DNA from: Histomonas meleagridis 2922-C6/04-290x
Taxonomy: Eukaryota; Protista; Parabasalia
NCBI GenBank assembly: GCA_020184695.1
Contig: JAANOX010000044.1
Span: 1-36,327 of the forward strand
Reading direction: 5' to 3'
DNA: 36,327 nt
This document shows, piece by piece, positions 11,228 to 36,327 of this stretch. The notes beneath the pieces are model-generated. The model was not told where the DNA came from and made no database searches. It was given only the letters and a program-made list of their open reading frames with translations. The translations under genes were made by a program, and so were the position numbers. How positions within the stretch are numbered: the stretch's first letter is position 1; each line of letters starts with the position of its first letter.

Positions 11228-12793
11228 ATGATCGATTTGTGGGTTTCTTCTGCTGAAAATCTACCAAGCGCTGATCCTAATGGCCTTTCTGACCCATACA
11301 CAAACGTACAGTCCAAGGCATTCGGAGTTGAATATTTGTTAACAAAAACAGAAATCAAATTCAAAACATTGGATCCAGTATGGGATGGCGACTATTCCAA
11401 ACCATTACGCATTCCATTTGTTTGTGTCGATGATCTGGATTTAGAAATATATGATTATGACCGTTTTTCCAGTGACGATTATCTTGGAACTGTTAACTCA
11501 TTTTTCAAAGTTGAAAATAATGATAAAGAACTTAAGCTTCCCGTTAGTGTAAAGAAAGGAACCAAAGGCCCTCCAAGCATAACTATTAAGTATCGTCTTC
11601 CAACCCAAAACTTTCCATCAGATCAAAACATCAAAAAATATAATGTTATATATGCTTACCTTACATATTCATCCCCAGTGGCCTCTTCCAAAGGAGTTAG
11701 TCCAGTTCAACTTTCTGTATTCAATTATGAAAATTCAGAATTTTGCGTTAAACTTATGCCTTTATCAAACAGCAAACAGCCATTTTTCTACCCTTCAGAA
11801 AACGCAGCACATTATGGTCCCACAGGCTATACAAATGTTTACAAGTTTGTTCTTAAGAATATGAAAAAAGCAAATGAAATTTTTGTATTTACGGCCAAAT
11901 CTTCTGAGTACGAAGGCGATGTATCCCTTCATTTTGTAGCCGCAAATGAGACCAAGAAGAAAAATATGATTATATTCGATTACCAAAATTCCTTTAAGAT
12001 CATGAAATCATGCACAATTAGCATAACAAAGGACACTACCTCTACATTTCCTGTAAACATGGAACTAAAGAAGGGTGTTATATCATATGTTGATGCAAAT
12101 GTTTTGAGTTCTCCAAATGATAACATTGAAGAGCTTTTCAAAAACATAGGTCATTCCATTGATGAAAACAAACCATTTTGGCGTCGTCTTACCCTATATC
12201 ATGGCACAACAGTTTCGTTATCTTCAGCTGTTGATTTCCATCATGTTCAATTTCCGACTTCTATTGCTGTTGGCCTTGGGTGGGATACTGTCACTGATCT
12301 TGATGGTTCATGTATCATCTACAAGAAGTTAGATGATGGCAAATTCAAAGACATTGCCAAATGTTGTTATTCGAGCTTGAAAGTTTTGAAAGGCATTGTA
12401 AGGCACTCTGGTGATAACCTGACTGGTAAAGGCGATGGCGATGACGAAGTTATCACCATAAAACTTCAAGAACTTCCAGAAGAAGCAAAACTGTTGGCAA
12501 TAACCGTCACATCGTTTGGGGGTGTCCCGTTTAACCGCATTTCTGGCGGTTTTCTGAGGATAATGGATGCAAGAACTCATTTCGAATTAATGTATTTGCC
12601 ATTATCAAATCAACAGCAAAAAACGGGTTTAATATTTGCATTTTTGATAAAGGGAGATGATAATGTATGGGATTTGGTCCCATGTTTAAGATATGTCGAT
12701 GCAAAAACTCCACCAATTGTTAATGAGAAAGTGTTGGAACTGATTAATAATCAAGAACAATTTGAGGAATTAATGAACTTCCAAAATCAATAA
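11228..12793 (+). CDS. C2-domain protein fused to a C-terminal TerD/CABP1-like domain
   Basis: N-terminal SAENLPSADPNGLSDPY...KTLDPVW...LEIYDYDRFSSDDYLG is a C2 domain with Ca-binding Asps. C-terminal VGLGWD..DLDGS...HSGDNLTGKGDGDDEVITIKL..LP is TerD-like. Confidence 0.88.
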   Translation: MIDLWVSSAENLPSADPNGLSDPYTNVQSKAFGVEYLLTKTEIKFKTLDPVWDGDYSKPLRIPFVCVDDLDLEIYDYDRFSSDDYLGTVNSFFKVENNDKELKLPVSVKKGTKGPPSITIKYRLPTQNFPSDQNIKKYNVIYAYLTYSSPVASSKGVSPVQLSVFNYENSEFCVKLMPLSNSKQPFFYPSENAAHYGPTGYTNVYKFVLKNMKKANEIFVFTAKSSEYEGDVSLHFVAANETKKKNMIIFDYQNSFKIMKSCTISITKDTTSTFPVNMELKKGVISYVDANVLSSPNDNIEELFKNIGHSIDENKPFWRRLTLYHGTTVSLSSAVDFHHVQFPTSIAVGLGWDTVTDLDGSCIIYKKLDDGKFKDIAKCCYSSLKVLKGIVRHSGDNLTGKGDGDDEVITIKLQELPEEAKLLAITVTSFGGVPFNRISGGFLRIMDARTHFELMYLPLSNQQQKTGLIFAFLIKGDDNVWDLVPCLRYVDAKTPPIVNEKVLELINNQEQFEELMNFQNQ

Positions 12794-13230
12794 GTAAATA
12801 ATTTTATTTTTTTGAATAATATGTGAACAAGAAATAGAAACTTCGTTCCTTTAAATAATGATAATATTGTCAATGAAATGAAGAAATCAAATTCATTTTT
12901 TTATTATTATAATTGTTAAGTATATTGTACTCCACTAAAAATATTTTCTCAATGATAATTTTTTGATATAATTATTTATTGCAATAAATAATAATATTAA
13001 AATGAACTCTACAATTAAAAATCATATGTATACAAGGAAATTATTTGATCTCAACTCAGTTATAAAGATTTTTAAATCTGAAAATTTTAAAAACAGAATG
13101 ATGTTATGTAAATAAAATTCTTTTTATTATATACATTTTTACTTATTTTGGTTGAGATATCTTTGAGTAATTTTAACAACTTTAGAATACTGTTTAGAAG
13201 TTGCAACTTGTATAAGTTCTTAATGAAATA

Positions 13231-14540
13231 TAGGGGGTTTAAAAAGTCCTGACCCCACCCCCTTTTTTCGACATCTACTTGATCCATAAAAATGAACTTT
13301 ATATAAATAAAAACTACAATGAATGAACTCGATGTGTATTTTGTTGTTATTTAAAAATTTTGTACACTTGTTGAATTATAAGTGATTGAATTTTTTCTCC
13401 CGACTCAAAAACGCCACTTTTTCCACCACAAAATTTAATGGAAAAGTCGGAGCTCAAAATTGTTGTTAAATATTATCTTCTACAAGGAATGGGATATCGG
13501 TCAATTTACAAAGAAATAAATACTGCTCTTCCTGAAACTGATATATCACTTTCAAGCGTTAAACGATGGTGTAAAAAATTTTCTTCAGGTGACCTAAGTT
13601 GCAATAATTTACCAAGGAGCGGAAGGCCTACAATTAATGTAGCGGATCAAATTCGAGAAATGCTTGAAGAACAACCATTCTTATCAGCAAAATATATTGC
13701 ATCAGTTCTAGATCATTTTCCTACTGCTATTAAATCAGTTTTAATTAACGACCTTGGTTTAAAAAAGTATCGAAGAAGGTGGATCCCCCATATGCTATCG
13801 GAAGACGATAAGGAAAAAAGGGTTGAGTATCCCAAAGAAATTTTAAAGATATTAATCAAAGCTAGAGAAAACTTTTTTAATACAATTATGACTGGTGACG
13901 AGTCGTGGTTCTTTTATGAATATGAACATAAAAAAATGTATGCAGAATCACGTGATATGGTGCCACCGATAGTCTCTAAGAAAATTCTATCCAAAAAAAA
14001 AATGTTCACAATTTTCTTCAATGGGACGAAAATGCTTTGCATTGATGCATTACCATCTAATTACAAATTTAATCAGCAATATTTTATTAATTATATAATA
14101 CCACAATTTCACGAAAATGTTGATCATGACAAAAAACAACCACCTTTAAAAAATATAAAGATTCATATGGATAACTCCCCTATACATAATGGATCACTTG
14201 TTGCTAAAAAATTAAAAGAAGAAAAAATTAATAGAATTCCTCACCCACCTCATTCACCAGATCTAAGTCCATGTGATTTTTGGATTCTTGGAATGGCAAA
14301 GGAAAACCTAAAGGGTGTGGAGATAAATTCAGAAGAAGATTTAGAAAATGAAATTATACGCATATTCGACGGTGTCACTTTTGAAGAGCTTCAAATGGTG
14401 TTTGAAGCATGGATAAAAAGACTTGAATGGGTGATTAAGAATCATGGAGAGTACTACCATAAATAAAAGTTAATTAAAAAAATATATATTTTTTATTCAT
14501 CGAAAAAAGGGGGTGGGGTCAGAACTTTTTGGACCCCCTA
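13231..14540 (+). mobile_element. Full-length mariner (Tc1/mariner, DD34D) DNA transposon, 1310 bp
   Basis: 41-bp TIRs at 13231-13271 and 14500-14540 (38/41 identical), flanked by TA at 13229-30 and 14541-42, enclosing one transposase ORF. The boundary is ambiguous by 2 bp because the TIR itself starts with TA. Confidence 0.95.
13438..14466 (+). CDS. Mariner transposase, apparently intact
   Basis: N-terminal HTH region with PRSGRP, WIPH motif, TGDESW, HMDNSPIH and HPPHSPDLSPCDF. There are 34 residues between the second and third catalytic Asp. Confidence 0.95.
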   Translation: MEKSELKIVVKYYLLQGMGYRSIYKEINTALPETDISLSSVKRWCKKFSSGDLSCNNLPRSGRPTINVADQIREMLEEQPFLSAKYIASVLDHFPTAIKSVLINDLGLKKYRRRWIPHMLSEDDKEKRVEYPKEILKILIKARENFFNTIMTGDESWFFYEYEHKKMYAESRDMVPPIVSKKILSKKKMFTIFFNGTKMLCIDALPSNYKFNQQYFINYIIPQFHENVDHDKKQPPLKNIKIHMDNSPIHNGSLVAKKLKEEKINRIPHPPHSPDLSPCDFWILGMAKENLKGVEINSEEDLENEIIRIFDGVTFEELQMVFEAWIKRLEWVIKNHGEYYHK

Positions 14541-14619
14541 TAGTATATTTGAATTCCTTAAAAAGAATTGAAAATTAAGATGAATATACACTATTATAAA
14601 ATAAGCAAAAAAGCATTTT

Positions 14620-16031
14620 TTAATTTGACATTATTTTTTTAACTTGATGGGCGTCAAGAAGTAATTTAACTATTTCTGTGTAATCTTCTTCTGATGCACA
14701 AATTAGTGCAGTTTTAAGAAAATAAAATAATTTCCAAATATTAAAATAAAATATCATATAATTAAAATTAATTTTAAATTAGACTAACGAATATTTTTGA
14801 CATTAATATCAATTCTTTTTTGCTCTAGAAGAAGTTTTACTATTGCTGGATAACCATTTGAAGATGCATACATAAGTGCTGTGTTAAGATAACATAATGA
14901 ATTCCAACAATATTTTTGAAACATTAAACTGATGTTAAAAACTTCAAAGCCAATTGAGTTTAAAAATATAAATGTTTTGAAGTTACTATGTTTTAGGGAG
15001 ATAATTCCTAAATCTGATAAATCTTTAATTATGTTGTTTTTGTTTTCATAAAGATATTTAAATATATCATTTTTATGGAAAATAATCGCAGTTTCACATG
15101 AATCATCAAATGTTGAATGATTTTGTTCACATAAATGAATAATTTCTTCATTTCCGCCTGCAATTGCATATTTACCTGCATTTTCTACTTTTGCACCATT
15201 CATAAGTAAATATTTAAAACATTTAACTGATCCAAAAAATGCTGCATAATCAATTAATGTAACATTTTCTTCATTAATAAAAGAATATCTTTCATAAAGT
15301 GATGGTTCGATTATTTGATTGTAATCAAAATTTGTTTGTGATGATATTTCTTGAAGTTTTTCGATTTCATCTTTTCGAATTATTTGCGCTATTTCATTCG
15401 GATTATGTCCTTCTTTAACATATTTCTTATGAAGTTCCCAATCATTTTTTGAAAGTTCTTCAAAGATCAGAAAAAATTGTTCATAAAATTTATATTTACA
15501 TTTCTGAATCTCTTCTTTTGTATAATAATTTGCAAAATATAATGATTTCTTTTCTTCAATGAAATCTGGTTGAATGAGTTCATGTTCAATCATTTTTGAA
15601 AGTAAATAACATGATTCTTGTGATTTTAACTTAACTAAATAGCTCTTAAAAACATAAAATATTGGATAACTATGAATATTTTTTTCTTTTACTTCAATAT
15701 GTTTTAAAAAATTTAAGTATATTATTATTTTATATTTTTGTGATATAAATGCACTATAAATTAATATACTAATTAGATAATTAAATGAATAAGGAAAATT
15801 ATTGTCAAAAAATACAAATGCAGATTGAGATGATGATTGAATATTAGCCTCCGTTAATTTAAAAATAATATTTTCAAGTGTTTGTAGTGGATCTGTGTTC
15901 TTTTTTGAATATGATTTTCTTAAGTTAACCATAGGTAATCTTTGGCCCTTGTTTGTTGCTATTTTAGGTTTTAATATGGGTGCTTTTTGATGAGTATTCG
16001 AAGGAAATCTGTTAATTGGAGATTTTTTCAT
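14620..16031 (-). CDS. DUF3447-like ankyrin-repeat protein (locus A), with a further ankyrin block beyond the ORF stop
   Basis: ORF 14784-16031 has IRKDEIEKLQE, TLIDYAAFFGSVKCFKYLLMNG and YAIAGGNEEIIHLCE. After an 80-nt spacer (14713-14792) comes TALICASEEDYTEIVKLLLD... ending TAA at 14620. Confidence 0.8.
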
Positions 16032-16805: not shown

Positions 16806-19249
16806 ATGAATCATTTGAATCAAAAAAATAATCTTATTTTATTATTAAAAGACATCGAGTCAATTGTCTTTGACTTAAATGAAGATAATATTGAGCCAAA
16901 AGTTGAAAGTATTATGAATTTATTTGATATTAATTTACCATATTCATATAATTTGATCATTTCACGTTTAATATATAGATCTTTTATAGTTCAAAAGAAA
17001 GATATCAGAATATATTTATTATTCATAAATGCAATCAAGTCAAAAGAAGAATCAATTCAAGAAAATTATGATATAATTGAAGTTTTTACACATTTTCTTC
17101 TTCAATTAAATTCGCAAGAATCCTTTTATTTTTTAGAAAACATGATTGAAGAAAAATACATTTCTTCTAACGTAATTCAATCAAAAAATACATTATATTT
17201 TGCCCATTATTTTACTGAATCTAAAATCAATCAATTGAATATTTTTGAAACACCAGTTTTAAATTTCTTTAAAAATATTGAAGATCTTAAAAAAGACAAC
17301 TGGAAACTACACAAACAACTTATTAAAGAAGGTATTAATCCTATATCTATCATTAAAGCAATTCGTAACGATGATATTGATAAACTTCAAGAAATATCAT
17401 CACAAGATGATTTCGATTATAATCAAATTATTGAACCATCAATTTATGAATCGTTTTCTTTTATTAATGATAGTGATGTTTCATTAATTCATTATGCAGC
17501 ATTTTTCGGATCGATTAAATGTTTTAAATATTTGCTTATGAATGGTTCCAAATTAAATAATGTAAATAAATACGCAGTAGCAGGTGGGAATATAGAGATA
17601 ATTCATTTATGTGAACAAAATAATTGTAATTTTAAACAAGTTCATGAAATTGCTTTAGAATTTCATAGGAATAATCTCTTTGATTATTTTTATAAGAAAA
17701 AAGTGATTAAAGCTAAAGAACTTACTCAATTAGAAATTAAATGTATTAAAAATGATAATTATTCTTTGTTTGTTTCATTATTAGAAAAGAAAAAGTCAAA
17801 ATTTGATTTAAATATTGTTAATGAAACAGCAACAACAGGTAATATTTTTCTCATGAAATATTTCATGTATGATTATAAACTTCCAAAAAATATTTTAGCT
17901 TGTGCATCAGAATCAGGAAATTTAGAGTTAATGAAATTACTTCTTGAACAAAAAGGAATTGATATTAACTATGGAAGCATTTGATTTAATATTTTCGAAT
18001 TGAAAATTTTTATTTGGAATTTACTTAAATTAATTTATACTCCACTTATAATTGCATCTAAATATGGTCATATTGGATTGGTTAAATTACTTCTTGAACA
18101 AGAAGGAATTAATGTTAATGCAATGAATATTTTTTTATTTTGTTTAAAGTATTTTAATATTATATGATGTTTTTTTATTTAATTTGGTGAAACAGCTTTA
18201 ATTATGGCATCTAAAAATGGTAATATTGAAGTGGAAAAGATACTTTTAGAAAATGATGAGACTGAGATTGATGATAAAGATATTATTTTGTTTTTTTCAA
18301 AGTTTATAAAAATATTATATTATTATTTTATACTTCATGTTTTTTTGATTTGTTTGGTAAAAATGCATTAATGGTTGCTTCTGAACATGGGCATATAGAA
18401 ATAGTTAAATTGCTTCTTGAGCAAAATTTAATTGATATCAATGATCCTGACGTATTTTTTTATTATTTGCTTTCATGATTTCGACTTAATATTTGGAAGT
18501 TATTTAAAATATTTCAAACAGCTCTTATTATTGCATCAGAAAAAGGTAATTTAGAGATAGTTAAATTACTTCTAGCGCAAAATGGAATTGATATCAATAA
18601 AAAAGATAATTATTTATTTCATTTAAAACTTATTTAAAAATCTTTGGATTTCAAAATCATTTTTAAGATTTATTGTTATGACCTCGAACAGCTCTTATAT
18701 TAGCATCTTGGTTTGGTTATACAGAAATAGTTAAATTACTTCTTGAACAAGAAGGAATTGATATTAATGCTAAAGATATTTATTTGTTTTATTTTGGATT
18801 TATTTTAATAATTCTGTATTTTTAAATAATATTTGGAAATTATTTAAATTATTTAAAACAGCACTTATGAAAGCATCTGAATATGGTCATACAGAAATAG
18901 TTAAATTACTTCTTGAACAAGAAGGAATTAATATTAATGCTATAGATATTTATTTGTATTATTTAATATTTATTTTAATAATTTTATATTTGTAAATAAT
19001 ATTTAGAAATTGTTTAAATTATTTTATACAGCACTTATGTTAGCATCTCGATATGGTCATACAGAAATAGTTAAATTACTTCTTGAACAAGAAGGAATTG
19101 ATATTAATGCTAAAGATAGTATTTATTCTAATAATTTGATATTCCAAAATAATATTTGGAAATTATTTAAATTATTTGAGACAGCACTTATGATTGCATC
19201 TAGAAATGGTTATACAGAAATAGTCAAATTATTTCATAAGCACGAATGA
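16806..19249 (+). CDS. DUF3447-like ankyrin-repeat protein (locus B): N-terminal ORF plus 8 spacer-separated ankyrin blocks
   Basis: ORF 16806-17984 has SLIHYAAFFGSIKCFKYLLMNG and YAVAGGNIEIIHLCE. Blocks start at 18039, 18192, 18362, 18518, 18688, 18858, 19028 and 19181. Whether the whole span is one translated product is unresolved. Confidence 0.75.
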
Positions 19250-19399
19250 TTTGCCTCAAAACTCCAAAAATATATGGACTAAATTTAGGTGAATAAACAA
19301 TTAGATAAAATTGTCTAATATTTAAATATAAGCTAATTAATTTTTAAAGATATTCAAAAGATTTATAAATCAACCATAGTTTGTCAAAACCGGTAATTT

Positions 19400-29501: not shown

Positions 29502-31855
29502 ATGATAAAAAGAAATCAAACAATGTGGAAAAATGCATTGGAATCACTCGAAGACGTTATCTTTGATTTAAATGAAGATAATATTGATGAAAGTGTTGAA
29601 AGTGCTCTAAATTTGTGCAAAACTTTTTCTTCTTACTCAGACCGAATTCTTAGCACAATAATATATTCATCGTTTGTGGCACAAATGAAAGATTTTAATC
29701 TCTATCTTAATTTCATCCTTAAATATGAAGCCAGAAACAATAAATATAATCATAAATTAATTAAAGTTTTTGCTAAATTTCTTCTTCAGCACCATACCCC
29801 AGAATCTTTTTATCTTCTCAACAAATTAATTGAACATAATTTCATATTGCCAAATGTTGTTAAAGTTTTCAGTTCTTTTTATTTTGCGCATTATTTTAAT
29901 TATTCGGTAAAAACGACAGATTCTTCATATATAAAAAAAAATTATGTTGAACTTTCAAAGAACGATTGGGAACTTCATAAAAGATATGTAAATGAAGGAT
30001 TTAATCCAACAAAAATTGCACAAATTATTCGAAATGATGATTTAGATAAACTTCGAGAACTATATGAAAACAAAAATTTTTATATTGATAAAACAATTAA
30101 AAAATCAATTTATGAGGTACATGGATGCATTAGCTTTAAAAAACTTTCACTTATTGAATATGCAGCATTTTTTGGTTCTATCAAATGTTTTATATTTTTA
30201 CTGGAAAAAGGTGCAAGTTTATGTGAAACAGGTCAATATGCAGTTGCAAATGGGAACCCAACCATTATTCAGTTGTGTAAACAATTTGGTGCAGGTTTTA
30301 ATGGATCTTATGAAAATGCAATAAGATTTCATAGAAATGATATTTTTAAAGTATTATATAAATCTAATCTTGATGATTGTGATATTGATGAGATCCTAAA
30401 TTATTTTACTGGATTTCCTCATAAATGCTATAATATTAAGATTTTTAACTTTTTACTTGAACAAGAAGGATTTGATATTAACGCATTTTTTTCGATTAAT
30501 TTGAGTTTTTTTAATTTTTTTTTGAGATATTAAAATATTTGGATTTTATTTATTTTATTTGATACATTACTTATGGAGCTTGTCGATGATGATGACGACG
30601 ACTTTGTACTAATTAAGTTACTTCTTGAACAAAAAGAAATTGATATTAATGCTAAAAATATTTAATATTTTTTTGTGAAATTTATTTTAATAATTTCATA
30701 TTTCAAAATAATATTTGGAAATCATTTAAATTATTTTATACAGCACTTATGTATGCATCTTTATGTGGTCATACAGAAATAGTTAAATTACTTCTTGAAC
30801 AAGAAGGAATTGATATTAATGCTAAAGATATTTATTTGTTTTATTTGATATTTATTTTAATAATTTGATATTTCAAAATAATATTTGGAAATCATTTAAA
30901 TTATTTTGGACAGCACTTATGAAAGCATCTGAAAAAGGTCATACAAAAATAGTTAAATTACTTCTTGAACAAGAAGGAATTGATATTAATGCAAAAAATA
31001 TATATTTGTTTTGTTTGAAATTTATTTTAATAATTTGATATTTCAAAATAATATTTGGAAATTATTTAAATTATTCGAAACAGCACTAATGGAAGCAACT
31101 AAACAAGGTCACATAGAAATAGTTAAATTACTTCTTGAACAAAAAGGAATCAATGTTAATATTAAACCACATATTTGTTTAATCTGCTTGAAGATTACTT
31201 CTCTCAATTGGTGTTTTAATAAAATATCTAGAAATTATTTAAATTGTTTAAAACACCTCTAATGATAGCATCTATAAATGGTCAAATAGAAATCGTTCAA
31301 TTACTTCTTAAACATAAAGAAATTGATGTAAATGCTAAGGATAATTAATTGCTTTATATAATATTTATTATAATATTTTAGTTTTCTAAAATAATATTTG
31401 GAAATTCTTCAATTTATTTAATACACCACTGATTTTGGCATCTAAAAAAGGAAACAAAGAGATAGCTCAATTACTTCTAGAGCATGAAACAATTAAAGTT
31501 AACATTAAAAATATTCACTTTTTTTGTTTTATATTTCTTTTAGTGATTTTCTATTCCATGTTTATATTTGGTATTATATTAAATTATTTATGACTGCACT
31601 TATGTGTGCAGCAAAAAATAATCAAAAAAAAATAGTTGAATTGCTTCTCGGACAAGAAGGTATTGATATCAATGCAACGAATATTTAATTGCTTTGTTTT
31701 ATATTGATTTTAATGATTTCATATTTCAAAATGATGTTTGGGTTTTGTTTGGGTTGTTTTATACAGCTGTTCACATTGCACTCTTACATAATAACGACCA
31801 GGTATCTCGTCTACTTAAGATTAATGGTGCAATAGAGACTCGTTTTTATCTGTAA
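29502..31855 (+). CDS. DUF3447-like ankyrin-repeat protein (locus C): N-terminal ORF plus 8 spacer-separated ankyrin blocks
   Basis: ORF 29502-30533 has IIRNDDLDKLRE and SLIEYAAFFGSIKCF. Blocks start at 30564, 30740, 30910, 31080, 31253, 31423, 31593 and 31763; the last ends in TAA at 31853-55. Confidence 0.75.
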
Positions 31856-32138
31856 ATGGTCAAGGTAACATACAAATTTAAGGAAAAGTATATATATTTG
31901 ATCATTTTTTTGTAGAGATACAATTGTCAACACATTGGTTGTCCAAAAAACAAAAAAAAAATTATGTTTTAAATATAAGAGTAAATCGAAATTTTAAATA
32001 TATTTTTGAAAAATTGAAAATGAATATACAGTTTACAAATTTAAGTTATTATTTTTTTAACGACAATTTTTGCAATAATTAGTGCTGAGTATCGATAAAT
32101 ATAGGTAATCACCGTTAAATCAGGTAGGTATATAATGC

Positions 32139-32215
32139 GGTCGGGAATGATCACGAGGTCCCTAGGGGCCCCGCCCCCGGCGGGGCCCCTAGGGACCTCG
32201 TGATCATTCCCGACC
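32139..32215. repeat. Perfect 37-bp GC-rich inverted repeat with 3-nt loop
   Basis: ggtcgggaatgatcacgaggtccctaggggccccgcc (32139-32175), then ccc, then the exact reverse complement (32179-32215). Confidence 0.98.
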
Positions 32216-32224
32216 TTTACTTTT

Positions 32225-32311
32225 CACTGGGGGGATTGAAGGGGTCTTCGACCCCCGGAGGTGCCCTTCGGACCCCTCCGGAGGTCTCAGACCCCTTCAA
32301 TCCCCCGAGTG
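32225..32311. repeat. Second GC-rich hairpin with alternative branched folds
   Basis: gggggattgaaggggtct (32230-32247) pairs with agaccccttcaatccccc (32289-32306). Inner stem ccggagg (32255-61)/cctccgg (32275-81). cact/agtg at the base. Confidence 0.92.
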
Positions 32312-32342
32312 TGCTCGCTCCGTTCGCAACAAAAAAATCAAA

Positions 32343-32739
32343 ATGATTTTTTTGTGAGCCATACAATTCGATAGAAAATTTGAATGAGCATTCAATTTTT
32401 GAGAGAACGCGAAACTTTTTTCATAGGGACGATAGCACTTTTTATGCCGTTTTCCGCCTGAATTTGTCGATTCTCAAAATCCTAGATATATTGTAGTACA
32501 GCAATGTAAGTGTAAATTTAAGGATTATTTAGTATCTGATGTTTCAATGCATGCTGATTTTATTGAACGTGACCATTATGAAGATTATTTTTGTATTTAT
32601 ACAAATGAAAACAGGACTAAATATAAGAAATATGAATATAAAAGTAGAAAACCAAATTTTAAAATATGGTTTAAAGAAATGAATGGTAAAAGAAATTGAT
32701 CCAGAATATTTTATGTTAGAATTATTATTAATTTATTAA
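32343..32739 (+). pseudogene. Frameshifted small ORF of the viral-like element
   Basis: Open frame 32436-32699 (FPPEFVDSQNPRYIVVQQCKCKFKDYLVSDVSMHADFIERDHYEDYFCIYTNENRTKYKKYEYKSRKPNFKIWFKEMNGK), then a +1 shift to EIDPEYFMLELLLIY*. The 5' end is uncertain. Confidence 0.55.
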
Positions 32740-32759
32740 ATAAAAATCATTTTTTATCA

Positions 32760-34745
32760 ATGTTTAGTATTGAGAATGCTACGAAAGGTATAAAAACTAA
32801 TGTTGTTGCTGCTCCTGAAATTATTGATAAAGATGACTTACAAGAAGTTTTAGAAAATTATCCTACAAATGATCAAATAACAGAAAAACTTAATACTATA
32901 ACTTCGATTACATTACCTCAATTATATTATAATAAATCGCAATCAGATGAAAAATATTCAACAAAAAGTCATACTCATAATACAATAAATAATGATTTAA
33001 CAGTAAATGGGAATGTACAAGTTAATTCATTAAATGGTTTTCAATTAACAACTGCAGAAGGTGGTAAATGGGATACAAAATTATATGTGCCATCTATTAT
33101 TACATTAAAAGAAGATGGTGTTGTAGAAGTTGGACAATATATTGATATGCATAATAAGGCAGATTATGATAAAGATAATACATGGAGAATAACTGCTAAT
33201 ACTAATTCATTAGATTTTAAAAAAAAAAAACTGGTTCATTATTAAGTTTTGGAAATAATGGAAATATTCAATGTGCAACTATTAATAATTTAGATACAAC
33301 TAAGATATCTTTAAATGATCATAATCATGATGAGATTTATGCTAAAAAAGATCATGAACATACAAACTATGCTTCAACAGAACATACTCATAGTTATAAC
33401 GATTTAAATGATAAACCTGAAACATTTCCACCTACAGTTCATACTCATAGTTATAATGATTTAAATGATAAACCTGAAACATTCCCACCTTCAGAACATA
33501 CGCATAGTTATAATGATTTATCTGATAAACCTGAATCATTTCCACCATCAGTACATACACATACGGAGTATGCTCTGAAAGATCATAATCATGATACAAA
33601 ATATGCTGCTACAAATCATACACATAGTTATAATGAATTAACAGATATTCCTACAGTATCAAATCCAGAAAATATCACATGTTCAACAATTAATGGTTTT
33701 GCTTTAAATTCTTCTCCTTCATATTCGAATGTAGATATTAGTGTTCCTTCAATTGCAGTTATTAAAAACGATGGTGTTTTAGAAACAGGTCCTTATATAG
33801 ATATGCATACTAGTGATGGATATGAAAATGATTATAGTTTCAGAATACAATGTACAGGGAATGTTATGGAATTTAAACCAACACTAAAAGGTTGCAATGG
33901 TTTTTATTACACAGCAGCTTTTGATGCATTAGGTTGTACTAAATTAAATTGCTCTCAAATTATGTACTCTGTAAAAACTAATGGTATTGATAATACAGGA
34001 AATATAAAATCCGGTACTGGTCAATTCACTAGTTTAGAATCTACTAAATTAACTTTATTTCACAGTATAATTGAAGAATCAGGTAATACATATCAATTAT
34101 TATGGAGAATTTATGGATGTACACCTACTGAAGATAAAAATATGGAAGATTATATTTTTGAATCTGTAACACAAAAAGAAACAAGATAATGATACATTTT
34201 TCTGATATCTATAGTGCAATATATTATATTGCAACTACATTTAATACATTTGAAGGAACTGGAGGTTTAGCACAAATAAATACAACTATTACTCATAATG
34301 CACCTGTTGAAGAAGACTTAACACAATTTCAAATTGGTTCACCTGTATTTTTAACAGGTAATGTTTATGCTCTAACCAATGAAGGTAAATATGCTACGAA
34401 TACTTCATCAACTGATTGTATTCCATCAGTTAAAACATCAGGTACTTATAAAGAATATTTAGGGATATGTGTAGCTAAACATGGAACTGGATATAAAGCT
34501 TCAATAGGTGATGTTATTAAAAGAGAAATCGAAATTTTTACAAGATACTATTGATTTTTGCAACACATGGAGATTTTTATTTTAGAGTAAATAATACTGC
34601 AGATTATGAAATTGGTGATGTAGTATTATTTGATGGTAATAAATTATCAGATGATTTAGTAATAACTACTACAATATTAAATTCAATAGTTGGTAAAGTA
34701 ACAGGTAAAATAGATGAACATTTATTAAGTATATTTAAAGAATAA
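32760..34745 (+). CDS. Tail-fibre-like protein, ~660 aa if joined, split into four frames by three -1 shifts
   Basis: Track ORFs 32760, 33803, 34189 and 34551 plus the stop-free frame 33221-33802 missed by the track. Nine HxH motifs, HTHSYNDLNDKPETFPP repeats and two PSI....DG..E.G.YIDMH...D...RI modules. Confidence 0.65.
33383..33562 (+). repeat. 57-bp coding tandem repeat, 3 full copies plus a partial
   Basis: Units start at 33383, 33440, 33497 and 33554. They encode HTHSYNDL(N/S)DKPE(T/S)FPP(T/S)(V/E). Confidence 0.95.
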
Positions 34746-34777
34746 AAAATATTTTATTTCATTTTTATTTTTTTAGA

Positions 34778-35476
34778 ATGGAAGAACGTGAACCAAAAAA
34801 AGAACCTAGCATCAATAAATCTCCATTAGATGAAGTACGACGATTAGCTCTACTTAATGATAAAGGACCTGAAAAACAGCCTTCTTTTTACGAATTTTTA
34901 ATGCAAAATTTAAAATTGATTTTTCGTAATCTGAAATTTGATTTATCATTAAATAATTTTTTAAAACTAATGGATGAAGCAACAAAATCTGTTAGAAATG
35001 GGGTTCCAATATCACCCACATATAGAATTCAATTTAAGTCTATGAAAGAATATTATCAAATCATTATTAATAGTTTTATTATAAATTTTTTTAAAAAAAC
35101 CCAAATTAATACAAATTTAGATTTTGATGAATTTAAGAAATTAATTAATGATATTATTAAAAAATATAATATAGATTATATTGATGGTCATATAGGTTTA
35201 TATCCATTAAATGATTATTATAACTATTATAAATCTATTATTCTAAAATATACACCTTTAAGAAAATTACTTCATAAAATATTTGCAAAAGAAGTAGAAA
35301 ATGATTTTAAAAATGGGAAACCTAAAACTATACAAGAATTTATTAATTTCTTAATTACAAAATTAACTAACTCAAATATAACAGAAAATATTCCATTAGA
35401 TTATGCACACACACACACACAGCGCTATGTGAGCTTCGTGCTACGCACTCGCTCCCACTCGCGCTACATAAACTAA
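34778..35476 (+). CDS. Hypothetical protein of the viral-like element; the C-terminus probably reads into non-coding junction sequence
   Basis: 232-aa ATG ORF with TCATTT at 34759. The last ~25 codons come from the (CA)8 microsatellite (35406-35421) and a GC-rich patch. Confidence 0.6.
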   Translation: MEEREPKKEPSINKSPLDEVRRLALLNDKGPEKQPSFYEFLMQNLKLIFRNLKFDLSLNNFLKLMDEATKSVRNGVPISPTYRIQFKSMKEYYQIIINSFIINFFKKTQINTNLDFDEFKKLINDIIKKYNIDYIDGHIGLYPLNDYYNYYKSIILKYTPLRKLLHKIFAKEVENDFKNGKPKTIQEFINFLITKLTNSNITENIPLDYAHTHTQRYVSFVLRTRSHSRYIN

Positions 35477-35603
35477 AGGATGAACGGCTAAAATCGATTG
35501 AATTATCATAAATCGGTTGGTTTTGATTGAAAGTAATAAAATATATTTAAATTCATGATGACATTTATATTTAAAATGTGTGAGGCATGAATCCGGCTGA
35601 GTT

Positions 35604-35664
35604 GTTGTTAATACTATGTGGATTTTAGTGTTTTGTTGTTAATCCTATGTAGATTTTAGTGTTT
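35604..35664. repeat. ~31-bp direct repeat x2
   Basis: gttgttaat(a/c)ctatgt(g/a)gattttagtgttt at 35604-35633 and 35635-35664. Confidence 0.85.
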
Positions 35665-35671
35665 GGAGCTT

Positions 35672-36180
35672 AAAGTTGTTATTAACTGAGGTTTTGAATG
35701 TAAATAGTATCATTAAAATTTTGAGGGTTAACTTTAACCTTTTTTTTAACCCTTTTTTTAACCCTTTACGAAACGGAGAAAATGAGCATTTTTTGAATGA
35801 TTTAACGCAAAAGTTGAAAGTTGATATATCGGTAAGAATTTGACGTTAATTCTATGTCGAAAGTTGTTATTAACTGAGGTTTTGAATGTAAATAGTATCA
35901 TTAAAATTTTGAGGGTTAACTTTAACCTTTTTAACCCTTTTTTTAACCCTTTACGAATCGGAGAAAATGAGCATTTTCTGAATGATTTAACGCAAAAGTT
36001 GAAAGTTGATATATCGGTAAGAATTTGACGTTAATTCTATGTCGAAAGTTGTTATTAACTGAGGTTTTGAACGTAAAAAGTATCATTAAAATTTTGAGGG
36101 TTAACTTTAACCTTTTTTTTAACCCTTTTTTTAACCCTTTACGAATCGGAGAAAATGAGCATTTTTTGAATGATTTAACG
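35672..36180. repeat. ~186-bp tandem repeat, about 2.7 near-identical copies
   Basis: Units start at 35672 (188 bp), 35860 (185 bp) and 36045 (partial, to ~36180). They differ mainly in T-run lengths. Track ORFs 35840 and 36025 are by-products. Confidence 0.95.
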
Positions 36181-36327
36181 CTGAAATTGCATGTTTACAG
36201 GAGCTACTGTAAGGTTAAAAAAAAGGTTAACTTTTAGGTTAACTTTAACCTTTAATTTTTTATATATGTTTTTCTGATTTTTGTGTCACTTTTTGTGTAA
36301 AGGTCGTTGGTTCGAGATACAGCGACA

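What the first reader, a model, noticed from the sequence alone, without database searches (positions are those of the whole stretch)
32760..34745. Phage-tail-fibre-like protein in a protist genome
The reconstructed product has nine H-x-H motifs, three 19-aa HTHSYNDLNDKPETFPP repeats and a duplicated ~55-aa module (NGF.L...PSI....DG..E.G.YIDMH...D...RI at ~33030-33190 and ~33690-33850). Its C-terminal domain (GSPVFLTG...DCIPSV...LGI...FATHGDF...GDVV...IVGKV) is suggestive of an intramolecular chaperone. HxH motifs bind metal along the axis of trimeric fibres such as T4 gp37 and gp12 (established). Inference: this is a receptor-binding fibre of a eukaryotic virus, captured from or shared with bacteriophages.
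Basis: partly seen in the sequence, partly recalled or inferred. Interest (0 to 1): 0.8.

Follow-up and report, generated by a model that had tools for sequence, protein, structure and literature searches.

The report
Virus fibre gene inside protist genome
This is the attachment-fibre gene of a Maverick/Polinton-type virus sitting, as a cut-off fragment, in the genome of a Histomonas-like gut protist; phage-like fibres are already known in such viruses, but this one ends in an unnamed domain that likely helps three chains fold together.

Summary
The motifs are real: nine HxH, three 19-aa repeats, two YIDMH modules. The gene lies in four frames. Every break is in an A or T run, and short-read contigs of the family read through six of the seven, so they are likely long-read errors. 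Intact near-copies exist in Histomonas meleagridis, already labelled 'tail fiber/minor tail'. Relatives on 42 metagenome contigs sit beside protein-primed polymerase, A32 ATPase, integrase and a probable Metamonada-type capsid gene. The small gene upstream in the window is also conserved there. So this is a fibre of a Maverick/Polinton-like virus, here truncated between two other repeats. The HxH shaft and the YIDMH module match phage tail proteins, and a C-terminal trimer model passes (0.76 against 0.00). The C-terminal domain is not an S74 chaperone. It is a tandem beta-tulip fold shared by the phi29 gp12 autochaperone, capsid cement proteins and fibre ends of giant viruses and marine phages. 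It has no Pfam family and lacks the G2 DxAE motif. Chaperone versus capsid anchor stays open, about 55:30. Phage-like fibres in Polinton-like viruses are published; the domain family appears undescribed in the papers I searched.

The parts
32120..32446 (.). Multi-copy GC-rich hairpin repeat at the left junction with single-copy host DNA; probably a separate small mobile element, not part of the fibre gene
   Evidence: Perfect 37-bp hairpin 32139-32215 and 86% 42-bp hairpin 32225-32311; fold z = -15.3; single-copy contigs end at 32150 and summed depth jumps from under 900 to about 80,000-100,000; two contigs of other copies stop matching left of 32447
32447..32699 (+). 5'-truncated remnant of a small (about 117 aa) viral gene that lies between the probable capsid gene and the fibre in relatives
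   Evidence: tblastn 51-56% identity, E 1e-25 to 1e-28, to 6 of 42 loci; directly upstream of the fibre in 5 of those 6
32760..34745 (+). Fibre gene, about 660 aa, shown in four frames in this assembly
   Evidence: intact Histomonas relatives P0001, P0002, P0123, P0178; short-read contigs
33027..33206 (+). YIDMH module 1, a repeat unit also found in phage tail fibres
   Evidence: Module HMM 78.6 bits; the same HMM scores Vibrio phage F86 long tail fibre at 47 bits; PHROG 22284 tail fibre matches the module in relatives, E 2e-6
33320..33640 (+). HxH shaft with eight HxH motifs, including three 19-aa repeats (33383-33553); predicted axial metal sites
   Evidence: PHROG tail families, E 6e-10 to 1e-3; PDB 9d93 tail collar fibre gp4, E 0.0044; 391 phage records match P0178, and the 20 listed begin in the repeat region. 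Metal binding is inferred from T4 gp37 (PMC11705849, passages)
33683..33859 (+). YIDMH module 2
   Evidence: Module HMM 82.9 bits
33950..34278 (+). Predicted intertwined three-chain segment leading into the last domain; variable among relatives
   Evidence: Densest inter-chain contacts at residues 267-376 of P0178 in the trimer model; swapped among relatives
34279..34745 (+). C-terminal tandem beta-tulip domain (N/S-x-T-I-T-H ... DCI ... FATHGD ... GD ... G), no Pfam family
   Evidence: AlphaFold2 model of a 62%-identical relative, pLDDT 95; fold searches; conservation; C-terminal in 143 of 145
34778..35406 (+). Next gene of the same multi-copy fragment, unknown function, cut at 35406
   Evidence: Other copies continue with different DNA behind 35406; no homologue found
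35407..36327 (.). More abundant repeat starting with (CA)n and holding 185-188-nt tandem units; likely the terminal repeat of another Maverick inserted here
   Evidence: depth step and a joint 32569-35406 showing the same end inserted elsewhere in other copies; a gut relative has a (CA)n/(TG)n stretch at the centre of its end palindrome

Best explanation
The gene encodes a predicted homotrimeric virion fibre of a Maverick/Polinton-like virus integrated in a Histomonas-like parabasalid genome; this copy is a truncated fragment whose frameshifts are likely long-read errors. Shown: motif content, multi-copy state, intact paralogues, the viral gene context of relatives, and phage matches of the shaft and YIDMH module. 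Predicted: three chains intertwine, and each HxH ring would hold one metal ion on the axis, as in T4 gp37. Inferred: the variable middle carries host-surface binding, and the conserved C-terminal tandem beta-tulip domain most likely nucleates trimer folding, like the phi29 gp12 autochaperone, taking the place that S74 has in other Polinton-like viruses. Whether it then cuts itself off is untested. If it does, the nearly invariant Thr, His, Cys and His-Gly-Asp residues would have to supply a chemistry different from S74 and G2.
For: Viral context: 27 of 42 related metagenome loci carry pPolB, A32 ATPase, rve integrase or primase-helicase. Pfam gives DNA_pol_B_2 7e-40, Pox_A32 2e-6, DUF5906 2e-11 and rve 2e-4, the last below cut-off. 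The neighbouring 540-aa protein is nearest to Parabasalia/Preaxostyla clusters (0.98) and double-jelly-roll capsid clusters (0.97, Capsid_N on 24% of members). The window keeps the small upstream gene. In one genome for each of 185,579 prokaryote species only 3 short contigs from gut MAGs match, two of them the same element as L037. Trimer: residues 200-530 of P0178 x3 score 0.76 against a best control of 0.00; runs share at least 68% of contacts; partner pLDDT at least 70. The mark was reached by 21 of 30 proteins solved as pairs of one chain and 0 of 23 single chains. Chaperone reading: the domain ends within 10 aa of the C-terminus in 143 of 145 proteins that have its end, behind unrelated N-terminal parts including PTR, gp37-trimer and BNR domains. 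It aligns to phi29 gp12 residues 692-854 from model residue 8 (Z 7.7, rmsd 3.3, 100 aligned). Its best BFVD matches are long proteins of Tetraselmis virus 1 and Pyramimonas orientalis virus and a Colwellia phage 9A tail protein (E 3e-6 to 4e-5, TM 0.58-0.64); the Colwellia tail protein of matching length ends in a similar motif series (FTGSH ... NSLGEG ... GDLI). PMC12220804 reports S74 as missing from parabasalid PLVs.
Against: Capsid cement proteins score as high as or higher than gp12 in the fold search (Z 8.5, 8.2, 8.1, 7.9 against 7.7; tied, and within the range the tool calls common), and the phi29 head-fibre base also matches (Z 5.3). Pfam Phage_cement weakly matches 15 of 82 members (best E 1e-4), while neither S74 nor G2 is among the 25 families shown. 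Profile comparison with ten G2 domains gives probability 0.3%, score 14 against a shuffled maximum of 21.7. The G2 motif DxAE is replaced by TITH. The trimer run did not use my alignment, did not include the HxH shaft, and is calibrated on dimers of microbes. The window itself holds no capsid, polymerase or integrase gene of the element, and no genome was available to see a full copy. The domain model is of a gut relative, not of the window's protein. The hosts of the gut contigs are inferred, not shown.
Confidence: 0.7

Rival explanations
1. It is the same viral fibre, but the beta-tulip domain is a retained anchor or cement that seats the fibre on the capsid, as the N-terminal base of phi29 gp8.5 does, so the fibre points N-terminus outwards.
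For: The top PDB fold matches are capsid cement proteins. There are weak Pfam Phage_cement and XM1_gp53 matches in 15 and 4 of 82 members. The nearest named Atlas cluster is Phage_cement_2 at 0.83, a lead only. No S74 or G2 catalytic motif is present.
Against: Known cement and base domains are stand-alone or N-terminal and sit on HK97 capsids (10.1101/216911, passages). Here the domain is C-terminal in 143 of 145 cases, follows an intertwined segment, and is shared across very different elements, including a contig with large-virus-like genes. Within one gut virus family the N-terminal part is the conserved one.
Confidence: 0.22
2. The gene is a phage fibre taken up and domesticated by the protist as a host adhesin, with no link to a virus.
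For: It lies next to ordinary host genes and matches phage tail repeats.
Against: It is multi-copy, nested between other repeats, and keeps viral gene order. Its GC is 27% against 34-40% for three host genes. The C-terminal domain has no match in 50,697 phage records at E 1, but has many relatives in Polinton-like contigs.
Confidence: 0.04
3. On the separate question of the breaks: this copy is a true pseudogene that decayed by slippage in A/T runs.
For: The copy is truncated on both sides. Contigs pool all copies, and some depth at 34155-34555 does not show the difference. Annotated paralogues P0121 and P0122 also end early.
Against: All seven indels are in homopolymer runs, while the protein is otherwise nearly identical to P0121. 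At 33222-33223 essentially all depth in four runs differs from the window. Indels of the same kind occur in the non-coding hairpin repeat.
Confidence: 0.12

Closest known systems
Phage-like fibre proteins of Polinton-like viruses (Bulzu et al. 2025, PMC12220804; Ltf of PgVV/Gezel-14T, 10.1101/2022.07.28.501842)
   Same: Long modular fibre with phage tail repeats in a Maverick/PLV. T. vaginalis PLVs are reported with PTR repeats, and Ltf was found in virions.
   Different: No collagen and no S74 here; the C-terminus is a tandem beta-tulip domain. The paper reports S74 as absent from parabasalid PLVs and names no substitute in the passages read.
Metamonada group Maverick-Polintons (Bellas et al. 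2023, PMC10120064; still ungrouped in 10.64898/2026.06.19.733378)
   Same: Parabasalid host, high copy number, and relatives with pPolB, rve, A32 and a divergent capsid-like gene.
   Different: The probable capsid protein of the gut relatives did not hit DUF4106. 'Histomonas', 'tail' and 'fiber' do not occur in the PNAS main text.
phi29 gp12 D4 autochaperone (Peptidase_G2, PF11962; PDB 3gqh)
   Same: C-terminal tandem beta-tulip behind an intertwined trimer, with the same domain border in the structural alignment.
   Different: No detectable sequence similarity; TITH instead of DxAE; lacks the long insertion of G2 domains; self-cleavage unknown.
Beta-tulip capsid cement proteins and phi29 gp8.5 base (PDB 9kmg, 7kmx, 5wk1, 6qyy)
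   Same: Same fold at equal Z, with weak Pfam Phage_cement hits.
   Different: Those are stand-alone or N-terminal and bind HK97 capsids; this one is C-terminal in a fibre of a probable jelly-roll virus.
HxH phage fibres (T4 gp37; PDB 9d93 tail collar fibre gp4; Streptomyces and Mycobacterium phage minor tail proteins)
   Same: HTH-S-W/Y-x-D/E-I/L-x-x-K-P-x-x-F-P-P type repeats, about 30-36% identity.
   Different: Only the shaft matches; none of 391 records covers 80% of the protein.

Membership tests
Maverick/Polinton-like virus gene | Linked to pPolB, A32 packaging ATPase and integrase | tested here: met
   Met in relatives (27 of 42 loci have at least one hallmark; L037 has pPolB, ATPase and integrase homologues). 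Not present in the window's truncated copy.
Maverick/Polinton-like virus gene | Double-jelly-roll major capsid gene in the element | tested here: inconclusive
   The candidate in relatives scores 0.97-0.98 to Parabasalia/Preaxostyla and capsid clusters, but has no Pfam or PDB hit and was not folded.
Maverick/Polinton-like virus gene | Terminal inverted repeats and target-site duplication of this copy | not testable with these tools
   No genome held; the window ends inside another repeat.
HxH trimeric viral fibre | Repeated HxH motifs homologous to phage fibre shafts | tested here: met
HxH trimeric viral fibre | Homotrimer | tested here: met
   Model only, C-terminal 331 residues of P0178: 0.76 against best control 0.00; mark reached by 21 of 30 solved pairs and 0 of 23 single chains. 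The shaft was not modelled.
HxH trimeric viral fibre | Axial metal binding and presence in virions | not testable with these tools
   Inferred from T4 gp37 (PMC11705849) and PgVV Ltf.
Peptidase_S74 intramolecular chaperone | Domain ends in a triple-helical coiled coil (PMC4690869) | tested here: not met
   The model (pLDDT 95) is all beta with one 6-residue helix and ends in a strand; no S74 Pfam hit for P0001 or P0002 at E 1.
Peptidase_G2 / phi29 gp12 D4 | C-terminal tandem beta-tulip fold | tested here: met
   Z 7.7, rmsd 3.3, 100 aligned, whole range 692-854, tied with cement proteins; fold described in 10.1101/216911.
Peptidase_G2 / phi29 gp12 D4 | D-[FY]-A-E motif at the domain start (E695 catalytic, role recalled) and sequence similarity | tested here: not met
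   phi29 reads S691-D-F-A-E695; this family has T-I-T-H, with His in 77 of 78; hhalign 0.3%.
Peptidase_G2 / phi29 gp12 D4 | Self-cleavage after trimer folding | not testable with these tools
   Needs expression.
Phage capsid cement protein (PF22758 type) | Stand-alone beta-tulip protein on an HK97 capsid | tested here: not met
   The fold matches, but the domain is fused C-terminally in long fibres of elements whose capsid candidate is jelly-roll-like.

The most novel reading that the evidence does not exclude
The C-terminal domain is a third kind of self-removing fibre chaperone, built on a tandem beta-tulip with Thr/His/Cys/Asp chemistry. It is the standard fibre end of viruses of gut protists, and it is swapped between their Maverick-type viruses and a larger DNA virus. 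Locus L034 has NifS-like, WLM-like and ATPase genes, and the first 100 nt of its fibre fragment are 96% identical to Polinton-like contigs before identity drops. That would point to an active virophage-like pair in animal and human guts.
Probability: 0.2. Interest if true: 0.72.

Novelty: new variant of a known kind. Interest (0 to 1): 0.42.

Why it matters
It supports parabasalid Mavericks being particle-forming viruses with an attachment fibre. It offers a candidate for the folding domain that S74 searches miss in parabasalids. It also supplies a marker that pulls unclassified Maverick-type contigs out of gut metagenomes and out of mis-binned bacterial MAGs. The headline idea, phage-like fibres in protist viruses, is not new.

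Tried and rejected
No genome was held, so no full-length copy could be read. A single-sequence fold of the C-terminal part failed, pLDDT 32, and was replaced by an alignment-based model. Five IMG/VR scans found no relative of the fibre, the domain or the capsid candidate. Expression: no RNA holder is listed; four runs guessed to be RNA give only short low-depth contigs over the gene and may contain DNA, so there is no verdict. Sequence-level links of the domain to G2, gp8.5 or the Colwellia tail end were not above shuffles or noise; one of nine fetched G2 regions was dropped because the start motif was not found. PDB sequence searches with domain profiles gave nothing. tblastn of the domain and of a divergent member against phages gave nothing convincing. 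YIDMH module 1 alone gives only E 0.03-6 in phages. The 47-bit score for the F86 fibre is on a target chosen from that list, though P0204 finds the same spot at E 1e-3. ORF 34778-35406 has no longer homologue. A tree of 43 domain sequences makes the four Histomonas rows one side of a well-supported branch among metagenome sequences, but it has no phage root, so it gives no direction of transfer. The RPB6 guess for an L034 ORF was not supported. Two look-ups in earlier findings returned nothing. The primary phi29 gp12 paper is not held.

Full report
1. Observation. The window is parabasalid-like host DNA with ankyrin/DUF3447, BspA, Rab, EMP70 and inositol-phosphate synthase genes. The stretch 32760-34745 reads in four frames. 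Intact near-copies are annotated in Histomonas meleagridis as tail fiber or minor tail proteins. The window's pieces are nearly identical to P0121 by inspection of the alignment, so the host is H. meleagridis or very close. All seven indels sit in A or T runs, and short-read contigs from two samples of one study differ from the window at six of them. They are most likely long-read errors, but contigs pool all copies, so this copy is not proven intact.

2. Setting in the window. Single-copy DNA ends near 32120. Then come a GC-rich double hairpin, a 5'-cut remnant of a small gene, the fibre, a second gene cut at 35406, and a more abundant repeat that starts with (CA)n. So the fibre lies in a multi-copy fragment nested between other repeats, with no capsid, polymerase or integrase gene of its own in view. 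No genome was held.

3. Relatives. A search with the middle piece gave 152 proteins among 2,259 candidates, including a large family of 770-1,235 aa proteins on contigs up to 20.9 kb. A metagenome scan gave 42 loci from 165 pattern matches. Of these, 27 carry pPolB, A32 ATPase, rve integrase or primase-helicase homologues; most of the other 15 are short contigs. A neighbouring 540-aa protein has no Pfam or PDB hit, but its nearest Atlas clusters are Parabasalia/Preaxostyla proteins (0.98) and jelly-roll capsid clusters (0.97, 0.96), as expected for the Metamonada Maverick capsid. The small gene upstream of the fibre in the window is 51-56% identical to the gene between this capsid candidate and the fibre in 6 loci, and directly adjacent in 5. 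In prokaryote genomes only 3 short MAG contigs match, two of them the L037 element. The gene is therefore a Maverick/Polinton-like virus gene. The hosts of the gut contigs are not shown.

4. Phage links. The HxH repeats match PHROG tail families, PDB 9d93 tail collar fibre (E 0.0044) and 391 phage records, mostly Streptomyces, Mycobacterium and Arthrobacter minor tail proteins, none over 80% of the length. The YIDMH module is a mobile unit, with five copies in P0204 and four in P0087. It matches the long tail fibre of Vibrio phage F86 and PHROG 22284. The C-terminal domain has no sequence match in 50,697 phage records. The fibre is thus a mosaic of phage-type parts, and the direction of exchange cannot be given.

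5. Trimer. Three copies of P0178 residues 200-530 score 0.76 against a best control of 0.00, with at least 68% shared contacts and pLDDT at least 70. The mark was reached by 21 of 30 solved pairs and 0 of 23 single chains, on eukaryotic proteins by 17 of 29. The alignment was not used and the HxH shaft was not included. Contacts are densest at 267-376 and also involve the conserved T-H-G and G-D motifs of the last domain.

6. The C-terminal domain. A profile search of 1.84 billion representatives gave 457 hits at E 0.001; the profile also held upstream columns, so not all are domain hits. Of 151 proteins examined, 145 contain the domain's end and 143 have it within 10 residues of the C-terminus. 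Nearly invariant residues in 82 rows are Thr8 (77 of 78), His11 (77 of 78), Cys54 (79 of 82), His103 (80 of 82), Asp105 (81 of 82) and Asp120 (79 of 82). The model of a relative's domain has pLDDT 95 and is all beta, which excludes S74. It matches beta-tulip proteins: capsid cements (Z 7.9-8.5), phi29 gp12 C-terminal fragment (Z 7.7, residues 692-854) and the gp8.5 base (Z 5.3). In BFVD the best matches are long proteins of two algal giant viruses and a Colwellia phage tail protein (TM 0.58-0.64); the Colwellia tail protein of matching length ends in FTGSH ... NSLGEG ... GDLI. Sequence comparison with G2 domains is not above shuffles, and G2's DxAE is TITH here. If the structural alignment starts without a gap, His11 stands at the place of phi29 Glu695; the catalytic role of Glu695 is recalled, and the register is my inference from the ranges alone. 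Position and portability favour an autochaperone, while fold scores and weak Phage_cement hits in 15 of 82 members keep a capsid anchor alive. My odds: chaperone 0.55, anchor 0.3, other 0.15.

7. What is known. I saw passages only, found by term search, of: PMC12220804 (PLVs use phage-like fibres; S74 ubiquitous except in ochrophytes, parabasalids and amoebozoans; T. vaginalis PLVs have collagen plus PTR), PMC10120064 (Metamonada capsid group), 10.64898/2026.06.19.733378 (trichomonad elements still ungrouped; no 'fiber', 'tail' or 'chaperone' in the text), 10.1101/2022.07.28.501842 (Ltf in PgVV virions), 10.1101/216911 (gp12 D4 is a tandem beta-tulip autochaperone), PMC4690869 (S74 structure), PMC11705849 (HxH and iron), and PMC10045372, PMC12291355, PMC8326128 and PMC5537660 (nothing used). 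Xiang et al. 2009 is recalled, not seen. Ten searches found no description of this domain or of Histomonas Maverick fibres. I read no supplements; Fig. S6 and the tables of PMC12220804, and the closed bioRxiv supplements, could already show it.

8. Verdict. The feature is real and correctly recognised as a viral fibre, and it belongs to a published kind. [quoted passage not shown] New variant of a known kind, interest 0.42.

Noticed in passing
window 14650-14950 (-), 17900-19250, 30420-31750: Ankyrin repeats recur with a 170-nt period: about 99 coding bases plus an AT-rich spacer of about 71 nt that does not appear to start with GT. In runs guessed to be RNA, contigs replace the spacer by short, highly variable stretches coding the ankyrin hairpin. 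These are either spacer-less paralogues mapping at 90% or unusual splicing.
   Followed up: no
window 32120-32446: Multi-copy element with two GC-rich hairpins (z -15). On the minus strand it ends hairpin ... CTGA followed by T, resembling a Helitron 3' end (recalled pattern). The same terminal motif appears as a loose end at 35649 in other copies.
   Followed up: partly
L034:1-10494: Fibre C-terminal fragment beside NifS-like aminotransferase, WLM-like peptidase and ATPase genes, a set that recalls asfarvirus-like large DNA viruses (recalled, not confirmed). Its first 100 nt are 96% identical to Polinton-like loci L010 and L023, then 40-90% per 50 nt. It shares a second gene with L039 (44%).
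   Followed up: partly
L001-L042: Several distinct Maverick-type virus genomes occur in gut metagenome contigs (proteins on contigs up to 20.9 kb), with fibre middles swapped between alleles; IMG/VR scans found none of them.
   Followed up: partly
L044, L045: Contigs of the L037 element are binned into bacterial MAGs (Firmicutes, Gastranaerophilales), likely contamination.
   Followed up: yes
window 13222-14549: Mariner/Tc1-like transposon: 342-aa DDE ORF between 50-nt inverted repeats.
   Followed up: no
L002:9435-10328: Large imperfect palindrome with a (CA)n/(TG)n centre at the contig end, probably joined terminal repeats of the element.
   Followed up: partly
window 11228-12793: Host gene fusing a C2 domain with a TerD domain.
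   Followed up: no
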